A DNA stretch of 64,000 nt from Escherichia coli phage AZ21, in sequence record LC788708.1; one strand, written 5' to 3'. The position numbers were made by a program, and so were the translations under genes. Positions 833 through 44,853 of this stretch are shown here, piece by piece; position 1 is the first letter of the stretch; each line of letters starts with the position of its first letter. The notes below the pieces were generated by a model that was not told the origin of the DNA, searched no databases, and saw only the letters and a program-made list of their open reading frames with translations.

Positions 833-3163
833 ATGAGCCATCGCATTGAAAAAGTAATTAAACGTGACGGTACTGTAGAAGACTTTGCTCCTGAAAAAAT
901 CAATGGTTGGGCAGAGTATGGTTGCAAAACAGTTGATGTAAGTTGGTCAGCCATTACTATGGCTGCTCAAAAAACTCTGCCTAAAGGGGTTGTAGATTCC
1001 GACACTCTGATGGATGCATTAATTAAAGCTGCTGAAAGTCTTATTAAAGATAATCCAGCATATGATGTGCCAGCAAAGGAATTACGTCTTGCGCAAATGC
1101 GTAAACGCCTTTATGATTCCTTCGAACCGCCTTCTCTGCGCTTCTTCCATGACCATATGGTTAGCGTAGGTGCATGGGAAGACATGAGTGCATGGATTAC
1201 CGATGAGCAATTTGAAGCTCTGAATCAGGTTATCGACCATGATCGTGACCGTCTTTTTACTAGTGGTGGGCTGAAGCAGTTCTTTGATAAGTATTCCCGC
1301 CGTAACATAGCCACTGGTGAAATTTATGAAACCCCGCAGTTTGCCTACATGGGTATGGCAATGGCGATGCTTTCTCAACCTAACTGGACAATTCTAGATG
1401 CAATCGACCTCTACAACGCAATGTCACTCCACAAAATCAACGTTCCTACGCCGCCACTGGTTGGTCTGCGCTCTAGTGACCGTGGATTTGCTAGTTGCTG
1501 TCTCGTGGATTCCACTGACACGTTGGATTCAATCGACACCGCCGAGCACATCGTCTTCAAAATGGTCGCAGCCAGAGCGGGAATCGGGTATCATCTTGAA
1601 AGCCGATCAATTGCTGATCCGGTGCGAAATGGGGCATTCCCGCATTCCGGAAAACTGCCATATTATCGACACATTGACCGCTCAGTAAAGGCCAATACTC
1701 AGCAAACTCGTGGTGGTTCTGCTACAGTGTCTTATCCATACTTCGACCCTGAAATCATTCAATTGATGCAGGTTAAGCAACAACGTGCTACAGATGAGAA
1801 TAAAATCGATAAGATGGATTATTCTCTGAGCTTTAACAATCTTTTGTTAAAACGTTATCTTAAAAACGAAGATATTACGCTAATGTCATACTTCTATGCT
1901 CCAGAAGTTCATGAAGCGTTTTATAGTGATGACGAGGCTAAATTTGAAGAAATCTACGTGGCAGCGGAGAAACGTGTGGCATCTCTTACAAAGATCGACC
2001 ACGAAGGAAAAACAGTTCCTGCAGCTCCTAAAGTCTCTGCAAAAGAAATCCTAGATACTTGGCTACGTATCCGAATGGAAACAGGACGTATGTATGCTCA
2101 TCACATCGGGGAATCTAATCGTCACGGTAACTTCCTTGATCCGATCCGTATGACAAACCTTTGTGTTGAAATTACTCAGCCTACACGCCCGTTCCATCAT
2201 ATCACAGAGCTGTATAAGACAAAAGAGCAGCTTGATCAAATGAAGCCGGAGGATATTGGTGAAGTATCTCTGTGTAACTTAGGCGGTGTTGTACTTGGAC
2301 GCATGGAATCTCTGGCTGAGTGGGAAAAAACTTGCTACATCCTTCTGAAATTCGTTGATACAATTATTGAGATTCAGGATTATCCGTTCCCAACTATGGA
2401 ATATACGGCTAAGAAACGTCGTAATGTTGGTATTGGCCTGATGAACGCAGCAGGTGCAATGGCAGCAGAAGGTCTGGCTTACGAAGGTATTGAAGCCCGT
2501 AACTGGATCCACCGTGAGGCTGAAAAACTGTCTTACTTCCTGCATAAAGCCTCTGTACGCCTAGCTAAAGAACAAGGTGCATGTGAGTGGTTTGATCGTA
2601 CTAAACCATCTAAAGGAATTCTGGTAATCGACACGTACAAGAAAACTGTTGATGAACTAGTATCCGTAGGCCTAGAAATGGATTGGGAGTCTCTGCGGGC
2701 AGATATTCTGAAATATGGTATGCGTAACTCTGTTCTAACTGCTCAGATGCCGGGAGAAAGTTCTTCTGTTCTGTTAGGTGTTACTAACTCTATTGAACCA
2801 CCTCGTAAGATTGTATCTATCAAGGGTAGTGCAGTAAATAAAGTAATTGCAATTGCTCCGGGTGCAACCGATTGGGAGACGTTAATGAGCTATAAACTGG
2901 CTTATGATGTAGATCGTATCGAGTGGATCAAGTGGGTAGCAACTATGCAGAAATTCTTCAGTCAGTCTATCAGTACGAATATGTACTATGACTACACCAA
3001 GTTTGAGAATGAAATCATTCCTGGCCCAGTAGTAGTTCGTGATTTCATGACTGCTGTTAAGTATGGGTGGAAAACTTTCTATTATGCTAACTTCAACACC
3101 GCAAATGGTGGAGGTGCTGGAGAAGAAGCAGCCGGTTGTGCATTCGGTGGTTGTACTATTTAA
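833..3163 (+). CDS. nrdA: ribonucleotide reductase class Ia large subunit
   Basis: ATP-cone-like N-terminus (MSHRIEKVIKRDGT) after RBS AAGGAAAG; active-site NLCVEI motif; C-terminal Cys pair CAFGGC; track ORF 728 trimmed to RBS-supported ATG. Confidence 0.9.
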   Translation: MSHRIEKVIKRDGTVEDFAPEKINGWAEYGCKTVDVSWSAITMAAQKTLPKGVVDSDTLMDALIKAAESLIKDNPAYDVPAKELRLAQMRKRLYDSFEPPSLRFFHDHMVSVGAWEDMSAWITDEQFEALNQVIDHDRDRLFTSGGLKQFFDKYSRRNIATGEIYETPQFAYMGMAMAMLSQPNWTILDAIDLYNAMSLHKINVPTPPLVGLRSSDRGFASCCLVDSTDTLDSIDTAEHIVFKMVAARAGIGYHLESRSIADPVRNGAFPHSGKLPYYRHIDRSVKANTQQTRGGSATVSYPYFDPEIIQLMQVKQQRATDENKIDKMDYSLSFNNLLLKRYLKNEDITLMSYFYAPEVHEAFYSDDEAKFEEIYVAAEKRVASLTKIDHEGKTVPAAPKVSAKEILDTWLRIRMETGRMYAHHIGESNRHGNFLDPIRMTNLCVEITQPTRPFHHITELYKTKEQLDQMKPEDIGEVSLCNLGGVVLGRMESLAEWEKTCYILLKFVDTIIEIQDYPFPTMEYTAKKRRNVGIGLMNAAGAMAAEGLAYEGIEARNWIHREAEKLSYFLHKASVRLAKEQGACEWFDRTKPSKGILVIDTYKKTVDELVSVGLEMDWESLRADILKYGMRNSVLTAQMPGESSSVLLGVTNSIEPPRKIVSIKGSAVNKVIAIAPGATDWETLMSYKLAYDVDRIEWIKWVATMQKFFSQSISTNMYYDYTKFENEIIPGPVVVRDFMTAVKYGWKTFYYANFNTANGGGAGEEAAGCAFGGCTI

Positions 3164-3172
3164 TAAAAACAA

Positions 3173-3198
3173 GGAGATCTTCGGGTCTCCTTTTTCTT
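3173..3198 (+). terminator. rho-independent terminator after nrdA
   Basis: GGAGATC-UUCG-GGTCTCC hairpin followed by TTTTT. Confidence 0.7.
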
Positions 3199-3209
3199 TG
3201 AAATTTTAC

Positions 3210-3239
3210 TTGCTAATCGCTACCAGATTTGCTATAATA
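3210..3239 (+). promoter_or_regulatory. sigma70 promoter (T5 early type)
   Basis: TTGCTA-18-TATAAT upstream of nrdB. Confidence 0.6.
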
Positions 3240-3269
3240 TTCCTGAAATAGTGAGAAAGAGGAAAATCA

Positions 3270-4415
3270 ATGACTACTTTACTAAACCTGAATTGGGATC
3301 ATACTAACGCTGACCTTTTCCTGGGAGATTCTCTCGGTATCGCAGATTATGTACGTGTAGCACATCCAGAACTAGAACGTCTGGCACTTCTGCAACGCTC
3401 TCAATTTTGGACTGAAACTGAAATCAGTCTGGAAGCAGATAAGAAACAATGGCCCAATCTCCCTCGTGAAATTCAGGAAATTACACTCCTGAACTTAGCA
3501 TGGCAAACTCAAACTGATTCCTTTATCAGTCGTGCCCCTGAAGCAGCTATTATGCCACTTGTAAGTCGTCCAGAATTGGAAGGTATGCTCAAACAGTGGA
3601 GCTATTTTGAAGACCTGCATAGTCGTGCTTATAGCAATATTATTCGTAATGTGCTGACTGATCCAGCAGAATTTATTGATTCTGTAACCAAAAACCAAGA
3701 AGCATTCGCGCGCATCGCTGATTCTGTTGAACTATTCGATGAACTGTACCAGTTAGGTCAGTATTTCATCGCAGTACGCGATCATCGTGGAGACAATACA
3801 TATCCAGAAACTGAGTTCCCTGAAGTTAAACGTGAAACTCAGGCTAAACTATTGGACGCTTACTTTGCGATCTATGGTCTGGAAGCAATGCAGTTTTACG
3901 CATCCTTTGCATGTACCTTTGCATTAGCAGAGAACGATATTCTGCAAGGTATTGCTAAAAATCTGCAATTAATCGCTAAAGATGAAGCTCTGCACACTCA
4001 GATGTCCAAAGCAATCATCCAGATTATGTTTCAGCAATTTGACAAAGATCTGGTAGATGAGGCAGTAGCTAAAGCACCAGCACAGCTCCTGAAAACTCTG
4101 AAAACTGAAATTGAATGGGGTCATTTCATTTTCAAAGGTCGTAGTCTGATTGGCTTGAATGCAGAACTTCTAGAAGAATATCTGTACTTTGTGGGGCGCA
4201 ATGCATTTATGCACATCGGTGTAGAATGGCCTAGTCACTTACCAGTAATCACCAAAAACCCTATTCCGTGGATCATGAACTGGTTGGATACTACTTCTCT
4301 ACAGCCTGCTCCGCAAGAAATCCAGATTGGTGCAGCTTACCGTGTAGGTCAGGTAACTGAGACCTCTACTGATACTCTGAAAGATCTGGGTAATGAATTT
4401 GGAGATTTCTTATGA
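3270..4415 (+). CDS. nrdB: ribonucleotide reductase small subunit
   Basis: 381 aa directly after nrdA with RBS; length and helical di-iron-type sequence consistent with NrdB. Confidence 0.8.
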   Translation: MTTLLNLNWDHTNADLFLGDSLGIADYVRVAHPELERLALLQRSQFWTETEISLEADKKQWPNLPREIQEITLLNLAWQTQTDSFISRAPEAAIMPLVSRPELEGMLKQWSYFEDLHSRAYSNIIRNVLTDPAEFIDSVTKNQEAFARIADSVELFDELYQLGQYFIAVRDHRGDNTYPETEFPEVKRETQAKLLDAYFAIYGLEAMQFYASFACTFALAENDILQGIAKNLQLIAKDEALHTQMSKAIIQIMFQQFDKDLVDEAVAKAPAQLLKTLKTEIEWGHFIFKGRSLIGLNAELLEEYLYFVGRNAFMHIGVEWPSHLPVITKNPIPWIMNWLDTTSLQPAPQEIQIGAAYRVGQVTETSTDTLKDLGNEFGDFL

Positions 4416-26875: not shown

Positions 26876-27121
26876 ATGTTAGCGGAACAAGCAAAACGTT
26901 TAGCTAGAATAAATAGAGCTGCACTCCTTAAGAGCAAGAAGAAAACGTATAAGTATGTTAAAAAGAGAATAGTTTCTTCTGTAGGGATTGGAAGTTCTTT
27001 TGTACAGTTTAATCGTGATGAAATTAGTTATGAAGTTATAAAAGCCCTCTATAAAGAGGGTTATACTCTCCAACTATCTAATGATTATGGCACAACTATT
27101 TTAACTGTTATTTGGGAATAA
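26876..27121 (+). CDS. hypothetical basic protein
   Basis: 81 aa. Confidence 0.35.
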   Translation: MLAEQAKRLARINRAALLKSKKKTYKYVKKRIVSSVGIGSSFVQFNRDEISYEVIKALYKEGYTLQLSNDYGTTILTVIWE

Positions 27122-27123
27122 TT

Positions 27124-27987
27124 ATGAAAAAAGAATTTAATGTACATAAAACTCTAGTAGTGCCTGATGATGCCAACTTGTTTTTCGTTGGTGATATTCA
27201 TGGATGCAATGATTTGCTAGAAGATGCGTTGAAGTTAGCTGGGTATAATAGCAAAAAAGATTGCGTAGTATGTGTCGGAGACTTAATAGACCGAGGCACA
27301 CAAAACCTACAAGTTTTAGCCAAATTCCTGTATAATCCACGTTTTATCAGTGTACGTGGTAATCATGACCAATTTATGATTGTAGGAGATTGGGCTAATT
27401 GGATGTATAATGGTGGTATGTGGGCTATGAATGAACTAGATGCAGACACCATTAAAAATATTGCCGAAGATATGGCTGAAAAAATGCCAGTATTCCTAAC
27501 TGTTAGACATCGTGGTAAGAAGTTTGGTGTTGTTCATGGTGGTGTACCTTTTACGTACAAAGAATGTGGTAATGAAGTAGAAACCCCAGTATGGGATAAT
27601 CTTATTGCACAAATAGAAGCAGCTAAGGAAAACCCACATGACCATCCTGAATACCATATTGAACCATATTTATGGGATCGAGATGTAATCCAAGAAATAG
27701 GCTTCTACTTGTCCAAAAATGGTGAGGAACACCCGTATTTCCAGCGTTATGCAGGATTTAAAGAAAAATACATGGTAGAAGTGCCAGAAGTTAAAGGTGT
27801 AGATTTCGTGTTTCACGGACATACTGGAGTTCCTTACCCACTTCTTTATAAGAACCGTGTTTATCTTGATACTGGCGGTGTTTTCAACGGGCAGTTGACG
27901 GTTGCGCAAGTTAACGATGAAACTGGCAAAATCACCACATTTACCACAGATAAAAATAATAGCTGCGGTGTACAGAGGATTCTTTAA
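27124..27987 (+). CDS. Ser/Thr protein phosphatase-type metallophosphatase
   Basis: GDIHG, GDLIDRG, GNHD motifs. Confidence 0.7.
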   Translation: MKKEFNVHKTLVVPDDANLFFVGDIHGCNDLLEDALKLAGYNSKKDCVVCVGDLIDRGTQNLQVLAKFLYNPRFISVRGNHDQFMIVGDWANWMYNGGMWAMNELDADTIKNIAEDMAEKMPVFLTVRHRGKKFGVVHGGVPFTYKECGNEVETPVWDNLIAQIEAAKENPHDHPEYHIEPYLWDRDVIQEIGFYLSKNGEEHPYFQRYAGFKEKYMVEVPEVKGVDFVFHGHTGVPYPLLYKNRVYLDTGGVFNGQLTVAQVNDETGKITTFTTDKNNSCGVQRIL

Positions 27988-28508
27988 TGAAAGTTCGCTT
28001 TTGGAGTGATCTCCACTTGGGGCATGCAAATATTACTAAATTCAGACCAATCTTCTCTACTATGGAAGAGCATGATGAATTTATTATGGATACTATTACA
28101 TCTATGAAAGATAAGCGTACAGTATTCTATATTTTAGGAGACGCATTTGTATCTAGAAATGGTTTGGAGAAGTTCGAAAAACTCTTTGGCAATGTTAGAA
28201 CTACGTTAGTTTTGGGAAACCACGACTTAGAACGAGAAGGATTATCTTTCAAAGACTTAATAGGGGTTGTAGATAATGTACAATCACTAGTTAAATATAA
28301 AAACTTCTGGCTTTCCCATGCTCCAGTGCACCCTGGGGAGCTGAGGGGTAAAAAGAACCTACATGGACATACTCACTTTGAGTTAATGGGAGACCCTCGT
28401 TATATTAACGTTTGTATCGAGTATGCAAAATCTCCAGTACGCCTGGAAGACATCATGAGTGGTAAGTACACTTCACATGATAAAACTAGCTGGATGTTAA
28501 ATGTCTGA
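27987..28508 (+). CDS. calcineurin-like metallophosphoesterase
   Basis: DLHLGH, GD, GNHD, GHTH motifs. Confidence 0.6.
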   Translation: MKVRFWSDLHLGHANITKFRPIFSTMEEHDEFIMDTITSMKDKRTVFYILGDAFVSRNGLEKFEKLFGNVRTTLVLGNHDLEREGLSFKDLIGVVDNVQSLVKYKNFWLSHAPVHPGELRGKKNLHGHTHFELMGDPRYINVCIEYAKSPVRLEDIMSGKYTSHDKTSWMLNV

Positions 28509-40468: not shown

Positions 40469-40720
40469 ATGCAAAACGTTATTACCGCGCCTAAAATTGG
40501 TCAATCCGTCTTTATTCCTTTCGTTACTAAAACGGATGAATTAACCGGAAAGGCCGAACGTATTAAAGGTGCGGCGCTTATGCCGTTCGATACAATCGAC
40601 GCGGTATATGCTGAAAATGAACGCAGTAACAACGGCAAGCCCGTTTTTAGCGTTCGCGTTAAATCCGGCGATGTTGTAAAGGTTGTTCAACGCAACGAAA
40701 AATGGGAAGCTGTGTTGTAA
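40469..40720 (+). CDS. hypothetical pre-early protein
   Basis: RBS CTGGAG then ATG; 83 aa. Confidence 0.45.
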   Translation: MQNVITAPKIGQSVFIPFVTKTDELTGKAERIKGAALMPFDTIDAVYAENERSNNGKPVFSVRVKSGDVVKVVQRNEKWEAVL

Positions 40721-40818: not shown

Positions 40819-41226
40819 ATGACTAACGCAAAAACCGCAAAATTCGCATGGAATGAAGAAAACACTCAGAAAGCTGTTACCATGTACCAGCAGTTAATCA
40901 ACGAAAACGGTTTAGATTTTGCAAATAGCGACGGCCTGAAAGAGATTGCAAAAGCAGTAGGCGCGGCCTCCCCCGTATCCGTTCGGTCAAAATTGACCAG
41001 TGCAAAAGCCTATCAAAAAAGCGATAAGCCGCGTAAAGTTGGCGGCGGTAGCTCTGTGCGTAAAGCTCACTATGTGCGAGTAATTGCAAAACACGCTATC
41101 GATTCCGGTATTATCAAAGACGCCGATGATCTGGCAAGCCTTGAAAGTGCTAAACTGGAAACGCTGGACGCGGTGGCGCAACTGTTAGGCGTTGCCGATG
41201 AAGTAAAACAAGCCGTAGGTGAATAA
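40819..41226 (+). CDS. hypothetical pre-early protein, possible A2 homolog
   Basis: 135 aa; RBS TAGGAG; sits on the inner side of the A1-like gene with one small ORF between; name assigned by position and size only. Confidence 0.4.
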   Translation: MTNAKTAKFAWNEENTQKAVTMYQQLINENGLDFANSDGLKEIAKAVGAASPVSVRSKLTSAKAYQKSDKPRKVGGGSSVRKAHYVRVIAKHAIDSGIIKDADDLASLESAKLETLDAVAQLLGVADEVKQAVGE

Positions 41227-41316: not shown

Positions 41317-41514
41317 ATGGTTTTCTTCCCTACTGAATCTTTGATTCTAGGCTTGTTTATTATGGCGGCCTCATTATTGTTCGCTTATTTTCAGAATGAT
41401 TTAGATTCGTATTATTTTAAACGTAAATCTAAATTAGCAAAACGTTTGGGCTTGCTTTGTTTTATCGCTGCCGTTGCCTGTGGTGTTAGTTCGAGTCTAG
41501 TACCATTAAATTAA
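41317..41514 (+). CDS. small membrane protein
   Basis: Two TM helices; RBS CAGGAG. Confidence 0.35.
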   Translation: MVFFPTESLILGLFIMAASLLFAYFQNDLDSYYFKRKSKLAKRLGLLCFIAAVACGVSSSLVPLN

Positions 41515-41601
41515 TGTTGCAAATTATAACGCCTATTATTCGAGGCGTTATATTTGGCAATATTGCCATTATTAACCTAATCCCTTTAATGGAGTTTTAT
41601 T

Positions 41602-43272
41602 ATGATTATTTCCGCAGAAAAACAAACCGTTATCCTGAAAATGGCCGCTGATTTCAATTTCTACGGTAAACGCCTGCGCGCCACTAAACTGGAGGTCTGC
41701 GACGATATTTCAAAAGCGGTCTACGATACAACGAAACACTCCACCGCTATCTGCGACTGGCTGGAAGCAAATAAACCAGCGAAACCAAAAGCGGCAAAAG
41801 TAGCAAAAGCCATTAAAAACGGTGAGCGCCCCGAAGCGGCTGGGATTGTTTCTAGTACCGTGGAGCAGTGGGAAGTAAAACAAGGTAAACGCTTTATTAT
41901 TACATCGATTCAGAATAATACTTTCCCGCATAAAAACTTTTTAGCCTCACTGGAGCAATTTGCTAAATATATCGGGGCTGATTTGCTCGTTTCTAAGTAT
42001 ATTTATAATAAAAACGGTTTTCAAAATGGGGAAGGTGCTGACGGAATCAAATATGATTCCGCGTTTGATAAATATATTTGCAGCAAAAACGTGTTTTTGA
42101 ATAACCGCCGCTTTGCTTTCATGGCTGAAATTAATGTTTTGCCTACCGCAGATTATCCGCTTTCTGGATTCGCAGAAACTGCAACGGCTTTAAATATTGA
42201 AGGTCTGGCAATTGGTCACGCTAAAATTACCGCTGAAAGCGTACCAGCTTTAAAAGGTGAAGTAGTGCGCCGTATGTACTCAACCGGAACGGCAACGCTC
42301 AAAAACTACATTCAGCAGAAAGCAGGACAAAAGGCCGAGGCGCTGCATAACTTCGGTGCGCTTATTGTTGAGTTCGACGAGGACGGGGAATTTTTTGTAC
42401 GCCAGCTTGAAACGATGGACGAAAGCGGGGTATTTTATGATCTGAATGTGTGTGCTACTCCTGCCGGATGCTATGAAACATCGGGGCATGTTTTAGGCTT
42501 GCAGTATGGCGATATTCACGCCGAAAAATTAGATGAGGAGTGCGCCGCCGCGTCATGGGGGCATGGTGATACTTATGGGCTAGTAGATATTCTTAAACCA
42601 AAATATCAGTTTGTGCATGACGTGCATGATTTTACATCGCGCAATCATCATAACCGCGCATCGGGTGTATTCCTAGCAAAACAGTACGCCGCCGGACGTG
42701 ATAAGGTTATTGATGATCTTATCGATACGGGGCGCGTGCTGGAATCAATGGAGCGTGATTTTTCTCAAACAATCATTGTTGAATCGAATCACGATTTGGC
42801 GTTATCCCGTTGGCTTGATGATCGTAATGCTAACATCAAAGACGATCCAGCAAACGCAGAACTGTATCACCGCCTGAATGCTGCAATTTACGAGGCAATC
42901 GGTGAACATGACGAAACGTTCAACGTGCTAGATTATGCGCTGCGCAAGGTTGCAGGTTGTGAGTTTAACGCCATTTTCCTGACCACTGACCAATCTTTCA
43001 AGATTGCAGGCATTGAATGCGGCGTACACGGTCACAACGGCATTAATGGCAGTCGTGGCAATCCCAAACAATTTAAGAAATTGGGCAAGTTAAACACTGG
43101 TCATACTCATACGGCAAGCATTTACGGCGGGGTATATACCGCTGGCGTAGCTGGTAGTCTGGATATGGGTTACAACGTTGGCGCGTCAAGCTGGACGCAA
43201 ACTCATTTAATTACCTATGCAAACGGTCAGCGCACTTTGATTGACTTTAAGAACGGTAAATTTTTTGCGTAA
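41602..43272 (+). CDS. A1: A1-like pre-early protein, calcineurin-like metallophosphoesterase/nuclease
   Basis: 556 aa, the length I recall for T5 A1; metallophosphoesterase motifs YGDIHAE, HDVHDF, ESNHD, GVHGHNG, GHTHT; RBS AATGGAG. Confidence 0.75.
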   Translation: MIISAEKQTVILKMAADFNFYGKRLRATKLEVCDDISKAVYDTTKHSTAICDWLEANKPAKPKAAKVAKAIKNGERPEAAGIVSSTVEQWEVKQGKRFIITSIQNNTFPHKNFLASLEQFAKYIGADLLVSKYIYNKNGFQNGEGADGIKYDSAFDKYICSKNVFLNNRRFAFMAEINVLPTADYPLSGFAETATALNIEGLAIGHAKITAESVPALKGEVVRRMYSTGTATLKNYIQQKAGQKAEALHNFGALIVEFDEDGEFFVRQLETMDESGVFYDLNVCATPAGCYETSGHVLGLQYGDIHAEKLDEECAAASWGHGDTYGLVDILKPKYQFVHDVHDFTSRNHHNRASGVFLAKQYAAGRDKVIDDLIDTGRVLESMERDFSQTIIVESNHDLALSRWLDDRNANIKDDPANAELYHRLNAAIYEAIGEHDETFNVLDYALRKVAGCEFNAIFLTTDQSFKIAGIECGVHGHNGINGSRGNPKQFKKLGKLNTGHTHTASIYGGVYTAGVAGSLDMGYNVGASSWTQTHLITYANGQRTLIDFKNGKFFA

Positions 43273-44038: not shown

Positions 44039-44118
44039 TAGTTGATTTATTATTGCCCGCTGATAGATAGCGGGCAATGCTGGATAAACTACATCCCTTT
44101 AATGGAGAACGTAACAAA

Positions 44119-44853
44119 ATGAATCAAGTTAAAACGAATATTTCCCGTAACTTCCCGCATATTTCCCGCGTCATGATCTGGGATCTTGATGGCACTATCG
44201 TTAATTCATTCCATCGTGTAGCGCCTTGCTTTGATAGTGAGGGTAATCTAGATTTAAATAAGTATAAGAATGAGGCTTGCAAACATGATTTAATAATGCA
44301 GGATACTTTATTGCCTTTGGTGGAATATATGCGCCAATGCATGAATGACGCAAATACTTTAAACATTATTTGTACCGCTCGATTAATGAGCAAATCGGAT
44401 TATTATTATTTGCGCAAACAAGGCTTGCGAGGGCGTGGGGATAGCAATATCCGCGTGTTTTCCCGCGACACGCTGCATAAATATTTTGAAGCTGATAAGG
44501 TTAGCGAGATATACCACAGTAAAGACGCAGTTTATAAATCGTATTACTTTGAATTATTTAAACAGCTATATCCGAACGCTGATTTCACAATGATTGATGA
44601 TCATAAAGGTGTATTATCAGCGGCGGCGTCATACGGATTTAAAACGCTAGACGCGCAAGCCGTTAACGATATTCTATCAATCGGCGTGGCATTGATAGGC
44701 GGAACCTTTATTGATGAATCTCTCGATGATGATAATGATTATCAGTTCCTAGCCGATCGATTGAAATTATGTTGGGAAAGTATGACCGAAGAAGAACGCG
44801 CAGAATATAGTTGCAGCCCGCAACAATATATTGAGAAATTAAAAGTTGCGTAA
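44119..44853 (+). CDS. dmp: HAD-family 5'-deoxyribonucleotidase (Dmp-like)
   Basis: HAD motif I VMIWDLDGT near N-terminus; 244 aa from the RBS-supported ATG; same CCCTTTAATGGAG leader as the A1-like gene. Confidence 0.7.
   Translation: MNQVKTNISRNFPHISRVMIWDLDGTIVNSFHRVAPCFDSEGNLDLNKYKNEACKHDLIMQDTLLPLVEYMRQCMNDANTLNIICTARLMSKSDYYYLRKQGLRGRGDSNIRVFSRDTLHKYFEADKVSEIYHSKDAVYKSYYFELFKQLYPNADFTMIDDHKGVLSAAASYGFKTLDAQAVNDILSIGVALIGGTFIDESLDDDNDYQFLADRLKLCWESMTEEERAEYSCSPQQYIEKLKVA

What the first reader, a model, noticed from the sequence alone, without database searches (positions are those of the whole stretch)
41602..43272. A1-like protein carries a complete calcineurin-type metallophosphoesterase motif set
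The 556 aa protein contains GDIHAE, HDVHDF, ESNHD, GVHGHNG and GHTHT in canonical order, consistent with a metal-dependent nuclease or phosphoesterase and with the host-DNA degradation role attributed to T5 A1.
Basis: partly seen in the sequence, partly recalled or inferred. Interest (0 to 1): 0.45.

Follow-up and report, generated by a model that had tools for sequence, protein, structure and literature searches.

The report
T5 A1 host-DNA-degrading metallophosphoesterase gene
This is the A1 gene of a T5-like coliphage; its C-terminal half carries a complete metal-binding motif set and predicted fold of the Mre11/calcineurin phosphoesterase superfamily, which fits its role in destroying host DNA, but recent papers had already predicted this.

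Summary
Window 41602..43272 (+) is a 556-aa ORF with GDIHAE, HDVHDF, ESNHD, GVHGHNG and GHTHT at residues 303, 339, 394, 474 and 500. The window is 100% identical to E. coli phage AZ23, and the protein is 96% identical to T5 A1.

HHpred gave a C-terminal nuclease domain in 2022. A 2026 preprint calls A1 a predicted metallo-phosphatase that is necessary and sufficient for host DNA degradation in vivo. In vitro nuclease activity is still untested.

The parts
41602..43272 (+). A1 gene (556 aa plus stop), pre-early gene of a T5-like phage
   Evidence: ORF. 100% identical to phage AZ23 LC788707.1. PHROG 1745 at E 5e-244. 96% identical to T5 A1.
41591..41594 (+). GGAG ribosome-binding site, 7 nt before the ATG at 41602
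   Evidence: Read directly from the sequence. The long 556-aa form is also supported by the published Ec67 escape mutation A15T, which lies upstream of the internal Met used in T5 record AY587007.
41602..41781 (+). N-terminal three-helix domain (residues 1-60); published as similar to the GcrA DNA-binding domain
   Evidence: Helices 5-17, 26-41 and 47-56 in the AF2 model. Poorly conserved: 0.24 mean pairwise identity. Replaced by Pfam HTH domains or absent in distant homologues. GcrA similarity and four Ec67 escape mutations are from bioRxiv 10.1101/2022.08.27.505566.
41782..41856 (+). Lys/Ala/Pro-rich linker (residues 61-85), predicted to be largely disordered
   Evidence: pLDDT below 50 for residues 63-74. 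Variable in the alignment.
41857..42489 (+). Middle domain (residues 86-296): predicted metallophosphoesterase-like fold without metal-ligand motifs
42490..43269 (+). C-terminal catalytic-type metallophosphoesterase domain (residues 297-556)
42508..42525 (+). Motif I, GDIHAE (D304, H306)
   Evidence: Follows strand 297-301. G303, D304 and H306 are invariant.
42616..42633 (+). Motif II, HDVHDF (D340 is the predicted bridging Asp; H339 replaces the usual Gly)
   Evidence: Lies at the end of strand 335-339. H339 and D340 are invariant; D343 is at least 90% conserved.
42640..42654 (+). Family-specific RNHHN motif (N348, H349, H350) just after motif II
   Evidence: N348, H349 and H350 are invariant in 39 sequences. 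H350 is invariant in the 13 most divergent. Its role was not tested.
42781..42795 (+). Motif III, ESNHD (N396 ligand, H397 catalytic-type His)
   Evidence: Follows strand 388-393 and starts helix 396-406. S395, N396 and H397 are invariant. Aligned to GNHD of a real MPE family.
43021..43041 (+). Motif IV, GVHGHNG (H476)
   Evidence: H476 and G477 are invariant. H478 is about 90% conserved (Asp or Ser in some).
43099..43113 (+). Motif V, GHTHT (H501, H503)
   Evidence: Follows strand 497-499. H501 and H503 are invariant. Aligned to GHTH of a real MPE family with P 6e-5.
40819..41226 (+). A2 gene (135 aa), DNA-binding partner of A1 (context)
   Evidence: PHROG 1725 'DNA binding protein' at E 8e-52. 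Annotated as A2 in syntenic phages. The A1-A2 heterodimer is from the literature.
44077..44853 (+). dmp gene (258 aa), 5'-deoxyribonucleotidase acting downstream of DNA breakdown (context)
   Evidence: Syntenic with the annotated dmp / dNMP-monophosphatase. PHROG 415. Role is from the literature.

Best explanation
The ORF is the pre-early protein A1 of a T5-like phage. Its most likely mechanism is direct, divalent-metal-dependent hydrolysis of host DNA by the C-terminal domain (residues 297-556).

That domain would hold a binuclear metal centre. D304 and H306 (motif I) and H503 (motif V) would bind one metal. D340 (motif II) would bridge the two. N396 (motif III), H476 (motif IV) and H501 (motif V) would bind the other. 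H397 would act as the transition-state-stabilising His, as in Mre11, SbcD and PolD-DP1.

The variable N-terminal helical domain (1-60) would tether the enzyme to DNA. The conserved middle domain (86-296) appears to be a second metallophosphoesterase-like fold that has lost all metal ligands. It would act as a non-catalytic partner to the active domain, serving as a substrate or partner-binding platform.

Shown here: the ORF, the motifs, their invariance, and the predicted folds. Shown by others: A1 is necessary and sufficient for chromosome degradation in vivo. Inferred: metal binding, the ligand assignment, direct DNA cleavage, and the role of the middle domain.
For: The ORF and motifs are exact, and the motif set is beyond chance. 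All seven ligand positions and the motif-III His are invariant in alignments down to 27% identity. The family has 2478 cluster representatives.

Profile-profile alignment places SNHD on GNHD and GHTH on GHTH of a genuine Metallophos family.

Literature:
- A1 point mutants escape retron Ec67/Eco2, and the ssDNA endonuclease DenB restores the triggering.

Distant homologues sit inside DNA-replication modules, in the order primase - helicase - A1-like - ligase / DNA polymerase. This fits a DNA-metabolism enzyme rather than a DNA-transfer device.
Against: No sequence-based library recognises the domain. Pfam Metallophos gives no hit for the whole protein or the C-terminal half at E up to 10 and 1 respectively. 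NCBIfam gives none. phmmer and hmmsearch against PDB sequences give none. Foldseek E-values are weak (0.08 or worse).

The fold evidence rests on AlphaFold2 models, not a solved structure. I could not inspect coordinates, so ligand geometry is unverified.

Nuclease activity of purified A1 has never been reported. This fold also hosts phosphatases, nucleotidases, lipid and cyclic-nucleotide phosphodiesterases, so the fold alone does not specify DNA. It is unexplained how unmodified T5 DNA would escape such a DNase.
Confidence: 0.7

Rival explanations
1. A1 is an active metallophosphoesterase, but DNA is not its substrate. It hydrolyses a nucleotide, a cyclic or oligonucleotide signal, or a phosphoprotein. 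Host DNA loss is indirect, through activation or de-repression of a host nuclease.
Against: The best structural matches are nucleases and exonucleases. An N-terminal DNA-binding-type domain, or HTH domains in relatives, is fused to the core. Homologues are embedded in DNA replication modules of unrelated phages infecting very different hosts, where a specific host nuclease partner is unlikely to be conserved. An unrelated DNA endonuclease, DenB, substitutes for A1 in retron triggering.
Confidence: 0.15
2. A1 is a sequence- or structure-specific endonuclease that makes only a limited number of cuts, as in Davison's 'restriction enzyme' hypothesis. Bulk degradation is then completed by host exonucleases such as RecBCD. 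T5 first-step-transfer DNA escapes because it lacks the target sites.
For: This hypothesis was proposed to explain why T5 DNA is spared (bioRxiv 10.1101/866236). The in vivo degradation experiments used RecBCD-proficient strains as far as described. A DNA-binding N-terminal domain could confer specificity.
Against: Nothing in the sequence resembles a restriction-enzyme specificity module. The DNA-binding N-terminus is the least conserved part and is absent from many family members. The closest folds are non-sequence-specific exo/endonucleases. This is a variant of the main explanation, not an alternative to the metal-site chemistry.
Confidence: 0.12
3. The motif-bearing domain is a catalytically inert scaffold, like Vps29 or the B-subunits of eukaryotic DNA polymerases. 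A1 acts only by binding A2, RNA polymerase or membrane.
For: Inactive members of the fold are among the structural matches: Vps29, and the Pol alpha, delta and epsilon B-subunits. A1 has several binding partners in the literature.
Against: Inactive members have lost the ligand residues. Here all seven ligands and the catalytic-type His are invariant over at least 27-100% identity. Within A1 itself, the ligand-less pattern is seen in the middle domain, not in this one.
Confidence: 0.03

Closest known systems
Bacteriophage T5 protein A1 (PHROG 1745, usually annotated 'DNA transfer protein')
   Same: 96% identical over 527 aligned residues. Same gene order. Full-length PHROG match. All residues hit by published retron-escape mutations (A15, C33, I36, S47, V214) are identical.
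   Different: Nothing of substance; this is an orthologue. The AZ23 record annotates it only as 'hypothetical protein'. Some T5 records annotate a shorter 527-aa form.
Mre11 / SbcD double-strand-break nucleases (calcineurin-like metallophosphoesterase superfamily)
   Different: No detectable sequence-profile similarity: Pfam PF00149 and NCBIfam TIGR00619 give no hit. There is no capping domain after the core, because the protein ends at the last core strands. No Rad50/SbcC-type ATPase partner gene is nearby. Motif II is HDxxDF. A ligand-less second copy of the fold precedes the active one.
PolD small subunit DP1 (archaeal 3'-5' proofreading exonuclease) and polymerase B-subunits
   Different: DP1 combines an OB fold with the phosphodiesterase domain (general knowledge). 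In A1 the preceding domain matches the MPE fold itself, not an OB fold. A1 is not associated with a polymerase catalytic subunit in T5-like phages.
Vps29 and other ligand-less MPE-fold scaffolds (comparison for the middle domain only)
   Different: No sequence similarity. In A1 the domain is covalently fused to an active MPE domain. It has its own strongly conserved polar residues at strand ends: QNNT 104-107, YN 135-136, N178..T182, T228-G-T..NY 236, H249.

Membership tests
Calcineurin-like metallophosphoesterase (MPE) superfamily | Motif I, D-x-H, after the first beta-strand | tested here: met
   G303-D304-I-H306 follows strand 297-301 and is invariant.
Calcineurin-like metallophosphoesterase (MPE) superfamily | Motif II, G-D-x-x-D-(R), with the bridging Asp | tested here: met
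   H339-D340-V-H-D343-F. The Asp is invariant. The leading Gly is replaced by an invariant His and the Arg is absent.
Calcineurin-like metallophosphoesterase (MPE) superfamily | Motif III, G-N-H-[D/E] | tested here: met
   S395-N396-H397-D398. S, N and H are invariant. Aligned to GNHD of a real MPE family.
Calcineurin-like metallophosphoesterase (MPE) superfamily | Motif IV His and motif V G-H-x-H | tested here: met
   H476 is invariant. G500-H501-T-H503 has both His invariant and aligns to GHTH with P 6e-5.
Calcineurin-like metallophosphoesterase (MPE) superfamily | Four-layer alpha/beta/beta/alpha sandwich fold | tested here: met
Calcineurin-like metallophosphoesterase (MPE) superfamily | Significant match to the family's sequence models (Pfam PF00149 / PF12850) | tested here: not met
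   No hit for the full protein at E up to 10, or for residues 289-556 at E up to 1. None of the 120 listed homologues carries a precomputed Metallophos hit. The PDB profile search finds no MPE.
Calcineurin-like metallophosphoesterase (MPE) superfamily | Profile-profile similarity to a bona fide member family | tested here: inconclusive
   hhalign against the profile of the in-window Metallophos protein gives probability 65% and P 6e-5. The signal is confined to motifs V and III. HHpred detection of a nuclease domain is reported in the literature.
Calcineurin-like metallophosphoesterase (MPE) superfamily | Two bound metal ions and metal-dependent phosphoester hydrolysis | not testable with these tools
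   Needs purified protein. No model coordinates were available to check ligand geometry.
Mre11 / SbcD nuclease family | Family-level sequence model (for example NCBIfam TIGR00619 sbcd) | tested here: not met
   No NCBIfam hit at E up to 1.
Mre11 / SbcD nuclease family | Capping domain C-terminal to the phosphoesterase core, and an adjacent Rad50/SbcC ATPase partner | tested here: not met
   The protein ends with the core strands at residue 556. The neighbours are A2, small ORFs and dmp.
PolD DP1 / DNA polymerase B-subunit family | OB-fold domain combined with the phosphodiesterase domain | tested here: not met
T5 A1 family (PHROG 1745) | Full-length similarity and pre-early synteny with A2 and dmp | tested here: met
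   PHROG match at E 5e-244 covering residues 8-555. 96% identity to T5 A1. Gene order A2 / A1 / dmp.

The most novel reading that the evidence does not exclude
A1 is an intramolecular pseudo-dimer of two metallophosphoesterase folds. A ligand-less, Vps29-like module (residues 86-296) keeps its own invariant polar pocket where the metal site would be: Q104, N105, T107, Y135, N178/T182, T228/T232/N235/Y236, H249, R267, D280. It is fused to a catalytic module (297-556).

In this reading the dead module is the regulatory or substrate-selecting half. It would bind DNA ends, A2 or RNA polymerase. It could account for A1's pleiotropy (second-step transfer, transcription shut-off) and possibly for sparing phage DNA. 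The retron-escape mutation V214M maps inside it.

This two-domain core, not the T5-specific N-terminus, is what is conserved across more than 2000 phage and prophage protein clusters. The family would then be a widespread phage DNase that is mis-annotated as 'DNA transfer protein'.
Probability: 0.35. Interest if true: 0.55.

Novelty: already known. Interest (0 to 1): 0.3.

Why it matters
How T5 destroys the host chromosome within minutes while sparing its own unmodified DNA has been an open question since the 1960s. A1 is the one gene that is necessary and sufficient for the degradation.

The invariant ligand set gives an exact list of point mutants that would settle whether A1 is itself the DNase: D304, H306, D340, N396, H397, H476, H501, H503. 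That idea is already in print and is being pursued by the groups working on T5, so the finding adds confirmation rather than discovery.

Two by-products may be useful:
- The conserved middle domain also looks like this fold but lacks metal ligands. It is therefore a candidate for separation-of-function mutations.
- The family is far wider than T5-like phages and usually sits in replication modules. The propagated label 'DNA transfer protein' is therefore probably misleading for most members.

Tried and rejected
Sequence-library searches found no metallophosphoesterase:
- Pfam on the whole protein and on each half gave only sub-threshold DUF4899.
- NCBIfam gave nothing.
- phmmer, and hmmsearch with a 39-sequence profile, against all PDB sequences gave only spurious weak hits.
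- Foldseek against the PDB put MPEs on top, but with E of 0.08 or worse.

hhalign comparisons were mostly uninformative:
- The A1 profile against the two single in-window Metallophos proteins was uninformative.
- A 35-sequence profile was needed to see a motif-level signal. The global hhalign mode failed.
- Middle-domain profile against C-domain profile showed no similarity. An internal duplication therefore cannot be claimed from sequence; the tandem-fold idea rests on predicted structure only.
- Middle-domain profile against the real MPE profile also showed no similarity.
- The T5-type N-terminus against the HTH-type N-termini of distant homologues showed no similarity. I do not call the T5-type N-terminus an HTH on my own evidence.

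A transmembrane segment was sought to explain the reported membrane association. None was found: the maximum 19-residue Kyte-Doolittle hydropathy is 0.9.

I could not measure ligand distances, check clustering of the middle-domain invariant residues, or examine the interface between the two domains.

Three papers could not be read directly. Davison 2015 and Stokar-Avihail 2023 (Cell) are not held; the bioRxiv version of the latter was read instead.

The 'chance motif' and 'inert scaffold' readings were considered and rejected on the shuffle test and on ligand invariance.

Full report
**1. The observation**

Window 41602..43272 (+) is an intact ATG-to-stop ORF of 556 aa. A GGAG ribosome-binding site lies 7 nt upstream.

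A deliberately loose ordered pattern, D.H / D..D / N[HD][DE] / H / GH.H with realistic spacings, occurred in 6 of 200,000 shuffles of the same protein. Among the 76 ORFs of at least 100 aa in six frames, the motif I-III pattern picked out only this ORF and 27112..27987. A looser motif-III string search added 27987..28508. Both of those are clear Pfam Metallophos proteins.

**2. Identity of the gene**

The DNA is 100% identical to E. coli phage AZ23 (LC788707.1). It is 93-95% identical to many Tequintavirus genomes, where the gene is called A1 or 'DNA transfer protein'. The protein matches PHROG 1745 end to end (E 5e-244) and is 96% identical to T5 A1.

The neighbourhood is the T5 pre-early block:
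- a DUF7177 protein at 40469..40720
- A2 at 40819..41226
- a small membrane protein at 41317..41514
- A1
- two small unknown ORFs
- dmp at 44077..44853

**3. Is the motif set really a metallophosphoesterase site?**

Sequence libraries say nothing. Pfam gives no Metallophos hit for the whole protein or for the C-terminal half. NCBIfam gives nothing. Neither phmmer nor a 39-sequence profile finds an MPE among PDB sequences. None of the 120 listed homologues has a precomputed Metallophos hit. Membership therefore has to rest on other evidence.

(a) Conservation. G303, D304, H306, H339, D340, S395, N396, H397, H476, H501 and H503 are invariant in 39 homologues down to 43% identity. They are also invariant in 13 sequences that include Flavobacterium, Tenacibaculum, Caulobacter, Rhizobium and Pseudanabaena phage proteins at 27-39% identity. 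That covers every predicted metal ligand plus the motif-III His.

(b) Predicted structure. An AlphaFold2 model from the alignment has mean pLDDT 87.7 and pTM 0.80. Each motif lies at the C-terminal end of a beta-strand.

Foldseek also ranks MPEs first, but only weakly.

(d) Profile-profile comparison. I built a 35-sequence profile of the small in-window Metallophos protein. hhalign places A1's SNHD on GNHD and GHTH on GHTH (probability 65%, P 6e-5). The signal is confined to motifs V and III.

I conclude that the C-terminal domain (about residues 297-556) is a highly divergent but complete member of the MPE superfamily. It deviates in flanking consensus residues: motif II is HDxxDF and motif III is SNHD. 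It also has a family-specific invariant N348-H349-H350 just after motif II.

**4. What is known**

[quoted passage not shown] Five T5 mutants escaping retron Ec67 carry A1 missense changes: A15T, C33R, I36T, S47P, V214M (bioRxiv 10.1101/2022.08.27.505566).
- Azam et al. found the same gene in escapers, and showed that the unrelated endonuclease DenB restores triggering (bioRxiv 10.1101/2023.03.15.532788). The Eco2 structure paper repeats this (PMC12916289).
[quoted passage not shown] Ectopic A1 alone removes chromosomal DNA but not rRNA (bioRxiv 10.64898/2026.04.02.716235).

**5. What the evidence adds**

The middle domain has none of the Asp/His ligand motifs but is nearly as conserved as the catalytic one: mean pairwise identity 0.48 against 0.53. 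Its invariant polar residues lie at or just after strand ends: Q104-N105-x-T107 after strand 97-104, Y135-N136 after strand 127-133, then N178..T182, T228-G229..T232..N235-Y236, H249, R267 and D280.

There is no detectable sequence similarity between the two halves, or between the middle domain and a real MPE family. This rests on predicted structure only. I could not inspect coordinates. One published retron-escape mutation, V214M, lies in this domain.

(ii) Distribution. The 2026 preprint describes A1 as predominantly associated with Demerecviridae. The family is large and wider than that.
- A profile search finds 2478 cluster representatives at 50% identity with E of 1e-3 or better, and 1630 with E of 1e-30 or better. 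Matches almost always cover the two-domain core, while the N-terminus varies.
- tblastn of the C-terminal domain hits 1132 phage records, 603 of them below 60% identity. These include Flavobacterium podophages, Caulobacter phiCbK-like phages, Rhizobium Autographiviridae, a cyanophage and a Tenacibaculum jumbo phage.
- In RHEph08 the gene lies between the DnaB-like helicase and the ligase / DNA polymerase. In Magneto it lies between DNA methyltransferases next to Pol I.
- A homologue sits on a 153-kb contig with T4-type baseplate genes.
- A scan of bacterial genomes gave 27 loci, mostly in alphaproteobacterial chromosomes. One, in Pannonibacter, has the order muramidase, Toprim primase, DnaB-like helicase, A1-like, dGTP diphosphohydrolase-like, DNA polymerase A. 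That is a T7-like prophage replication module.
- Earlier genome papers had already noticed A1 homologues in replication modules (PMC8541194).
- Many distant homologues replace the T5-type N-terminus by a classical HTH (Pfam HTH_23 / HTH_38), or lack it.

The conserved unit is therefore the core of dead MPE-like domain plus live MPE domain. Its usual context is DNA metabolism, not two-step DNA transfer.

**6. Mechanism**

The best-supported reading (confidence about 0.7) is as follows. The C-terminal domain is a binuclear-metal phosphodiesterase that cleaves DNA directly. D304, H306 and H503 would bind one metal, D340 would bridge, and N396, H476 and H501 would bind the second. H397 would act as in Mre11 H85-type catalysis. 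This ligand assignment is by analogy with established MPE enzymes, not by measurement. The N-terminal domain would provide DNA binding. The middle domain would provide a non-catalytic partner surface.

Rivals:
- An active phosphoesterase with a non-DNA substrate and indirect DNA loss (0.15).
- A site-limited endonuclease whose cuts are finished by host exonucleases, which is Davison's hypothesis and a variant of the main reading (0.12).
- An inert scaffold (0.03), contradicted by ligand invariance.

How T5 DNA escapes remains unexplained.

**7. Verdict**

The remaining gap, in vitro activity and ligand mutants, is experimental.

Interest is modest (0.3). The only part that may be new is the ligand-less second MPE-like domain and the breadth of the family.

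Noticed in passing
window 27112..27987 (+) and 27987..28508 (+): Two adjacent, conventional calcineurin-like phosphoesterase genes lie elsewhere in the window. One is a 291-aa NinI-like Ser/Thr phosphatase (Pfam Metallophos E 5e-17, PHROG 246). The other is a 173-aa phosphoesterase (Metallophos E 2e-6, PHROG 547, weak PdeM/SbcD-like NCBIfam hits). With A1, the phage therefore encodes at least three proteins of this superfamily.
   Followed up: partly
window 41514..41651 (+) and the A1 start at 41602; locus L008 (T5 AY587007) 1517..1663 and 1700..3283: T5 record AY587007 annotates A1 as a 527-aa protein starting at the internal Met (residue 30 here), plus a separate upstream 'ORF005'. It also labels the small upstream membrane protein 'probable A1 protein precursor'. 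In that record the long frame is interrupted by stops. In this window the 556-aa frame is open and has a good GGAG site. The published escape mutation A15T argues that the long form is the real one.
   Followed up: partly
loci L003-L007, L002, L034; one search hit list: The label 'DNA transfer protein' has been propagated to more than a thousand phage records. These include podophages, phiCbK-like phages, a cyanophage and jumbo phages, where the gene lies in replication modules and no two-step DNA transfer is known. The label is probably misleading for most of the family.
   Followed up: partly
loci L011-L034 (bacterial genome contigs), e.g. L034 5770..7491: A1-family genes occur inside alphaproteobacterial chromosomes, including Pannonibacter, Acidisoma, Pseudorhodobacter, Lichenicola and Erythrobacter. 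In L034 the gene lies in a T7-like module (Toprim primase, DnaB-like helicase, A1-like, dGTP_diPhyd_N protein, DNA polymerase A, muramidase), presumably a prophage. A chromosome-degrading nuclease in a resident prophage would need tight control.
   Followed up: partly
loci L009, L010, L013: Near-identical T5-type A1 fragments (88-97% identity) sit on very short contigs (754-3030 bp). The contigs are assigned to a Saccharibacteria MAG, a Lacticaseibacillus suilingensis assembly and a Clostridia MAG. These are most likely coliphage contamination or mis-binning.
   Followed up: no
window 40469..40720 (+): An 83-aa pre-early protein upstream of A2 matches Pfam DUF7177 end to end (E 1e-41). Its function is unknown.
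   Followed up: no
window 44077..44853 (+): The dmp orthologue (5'-deoxyribonucleotidase, with a DLDGT HAD-type motif) matches PHROG 415, whose label is 'polynucleotide kinase'. It only grazes Pfam HAD_2 (E 0.13). The library label does not fit the characterised activity.
   Followed up: no
A1 homologues P0064, P0073, P0075, P0100, P0107: Homologues at about 45% identity replace the T5-type N-terminus ('NFYGKRL' helices) with a classical helix-turn-helix (Pfam HTH_23, HTH_38, HTH_7, CENP-B N). Others (P0082, P0118, P0120, Tenacibaculum PTm1) have almost no N-terminal extension. The DNA-binding head is a swappable module on a constant two-domain core.
   Followed up: partly
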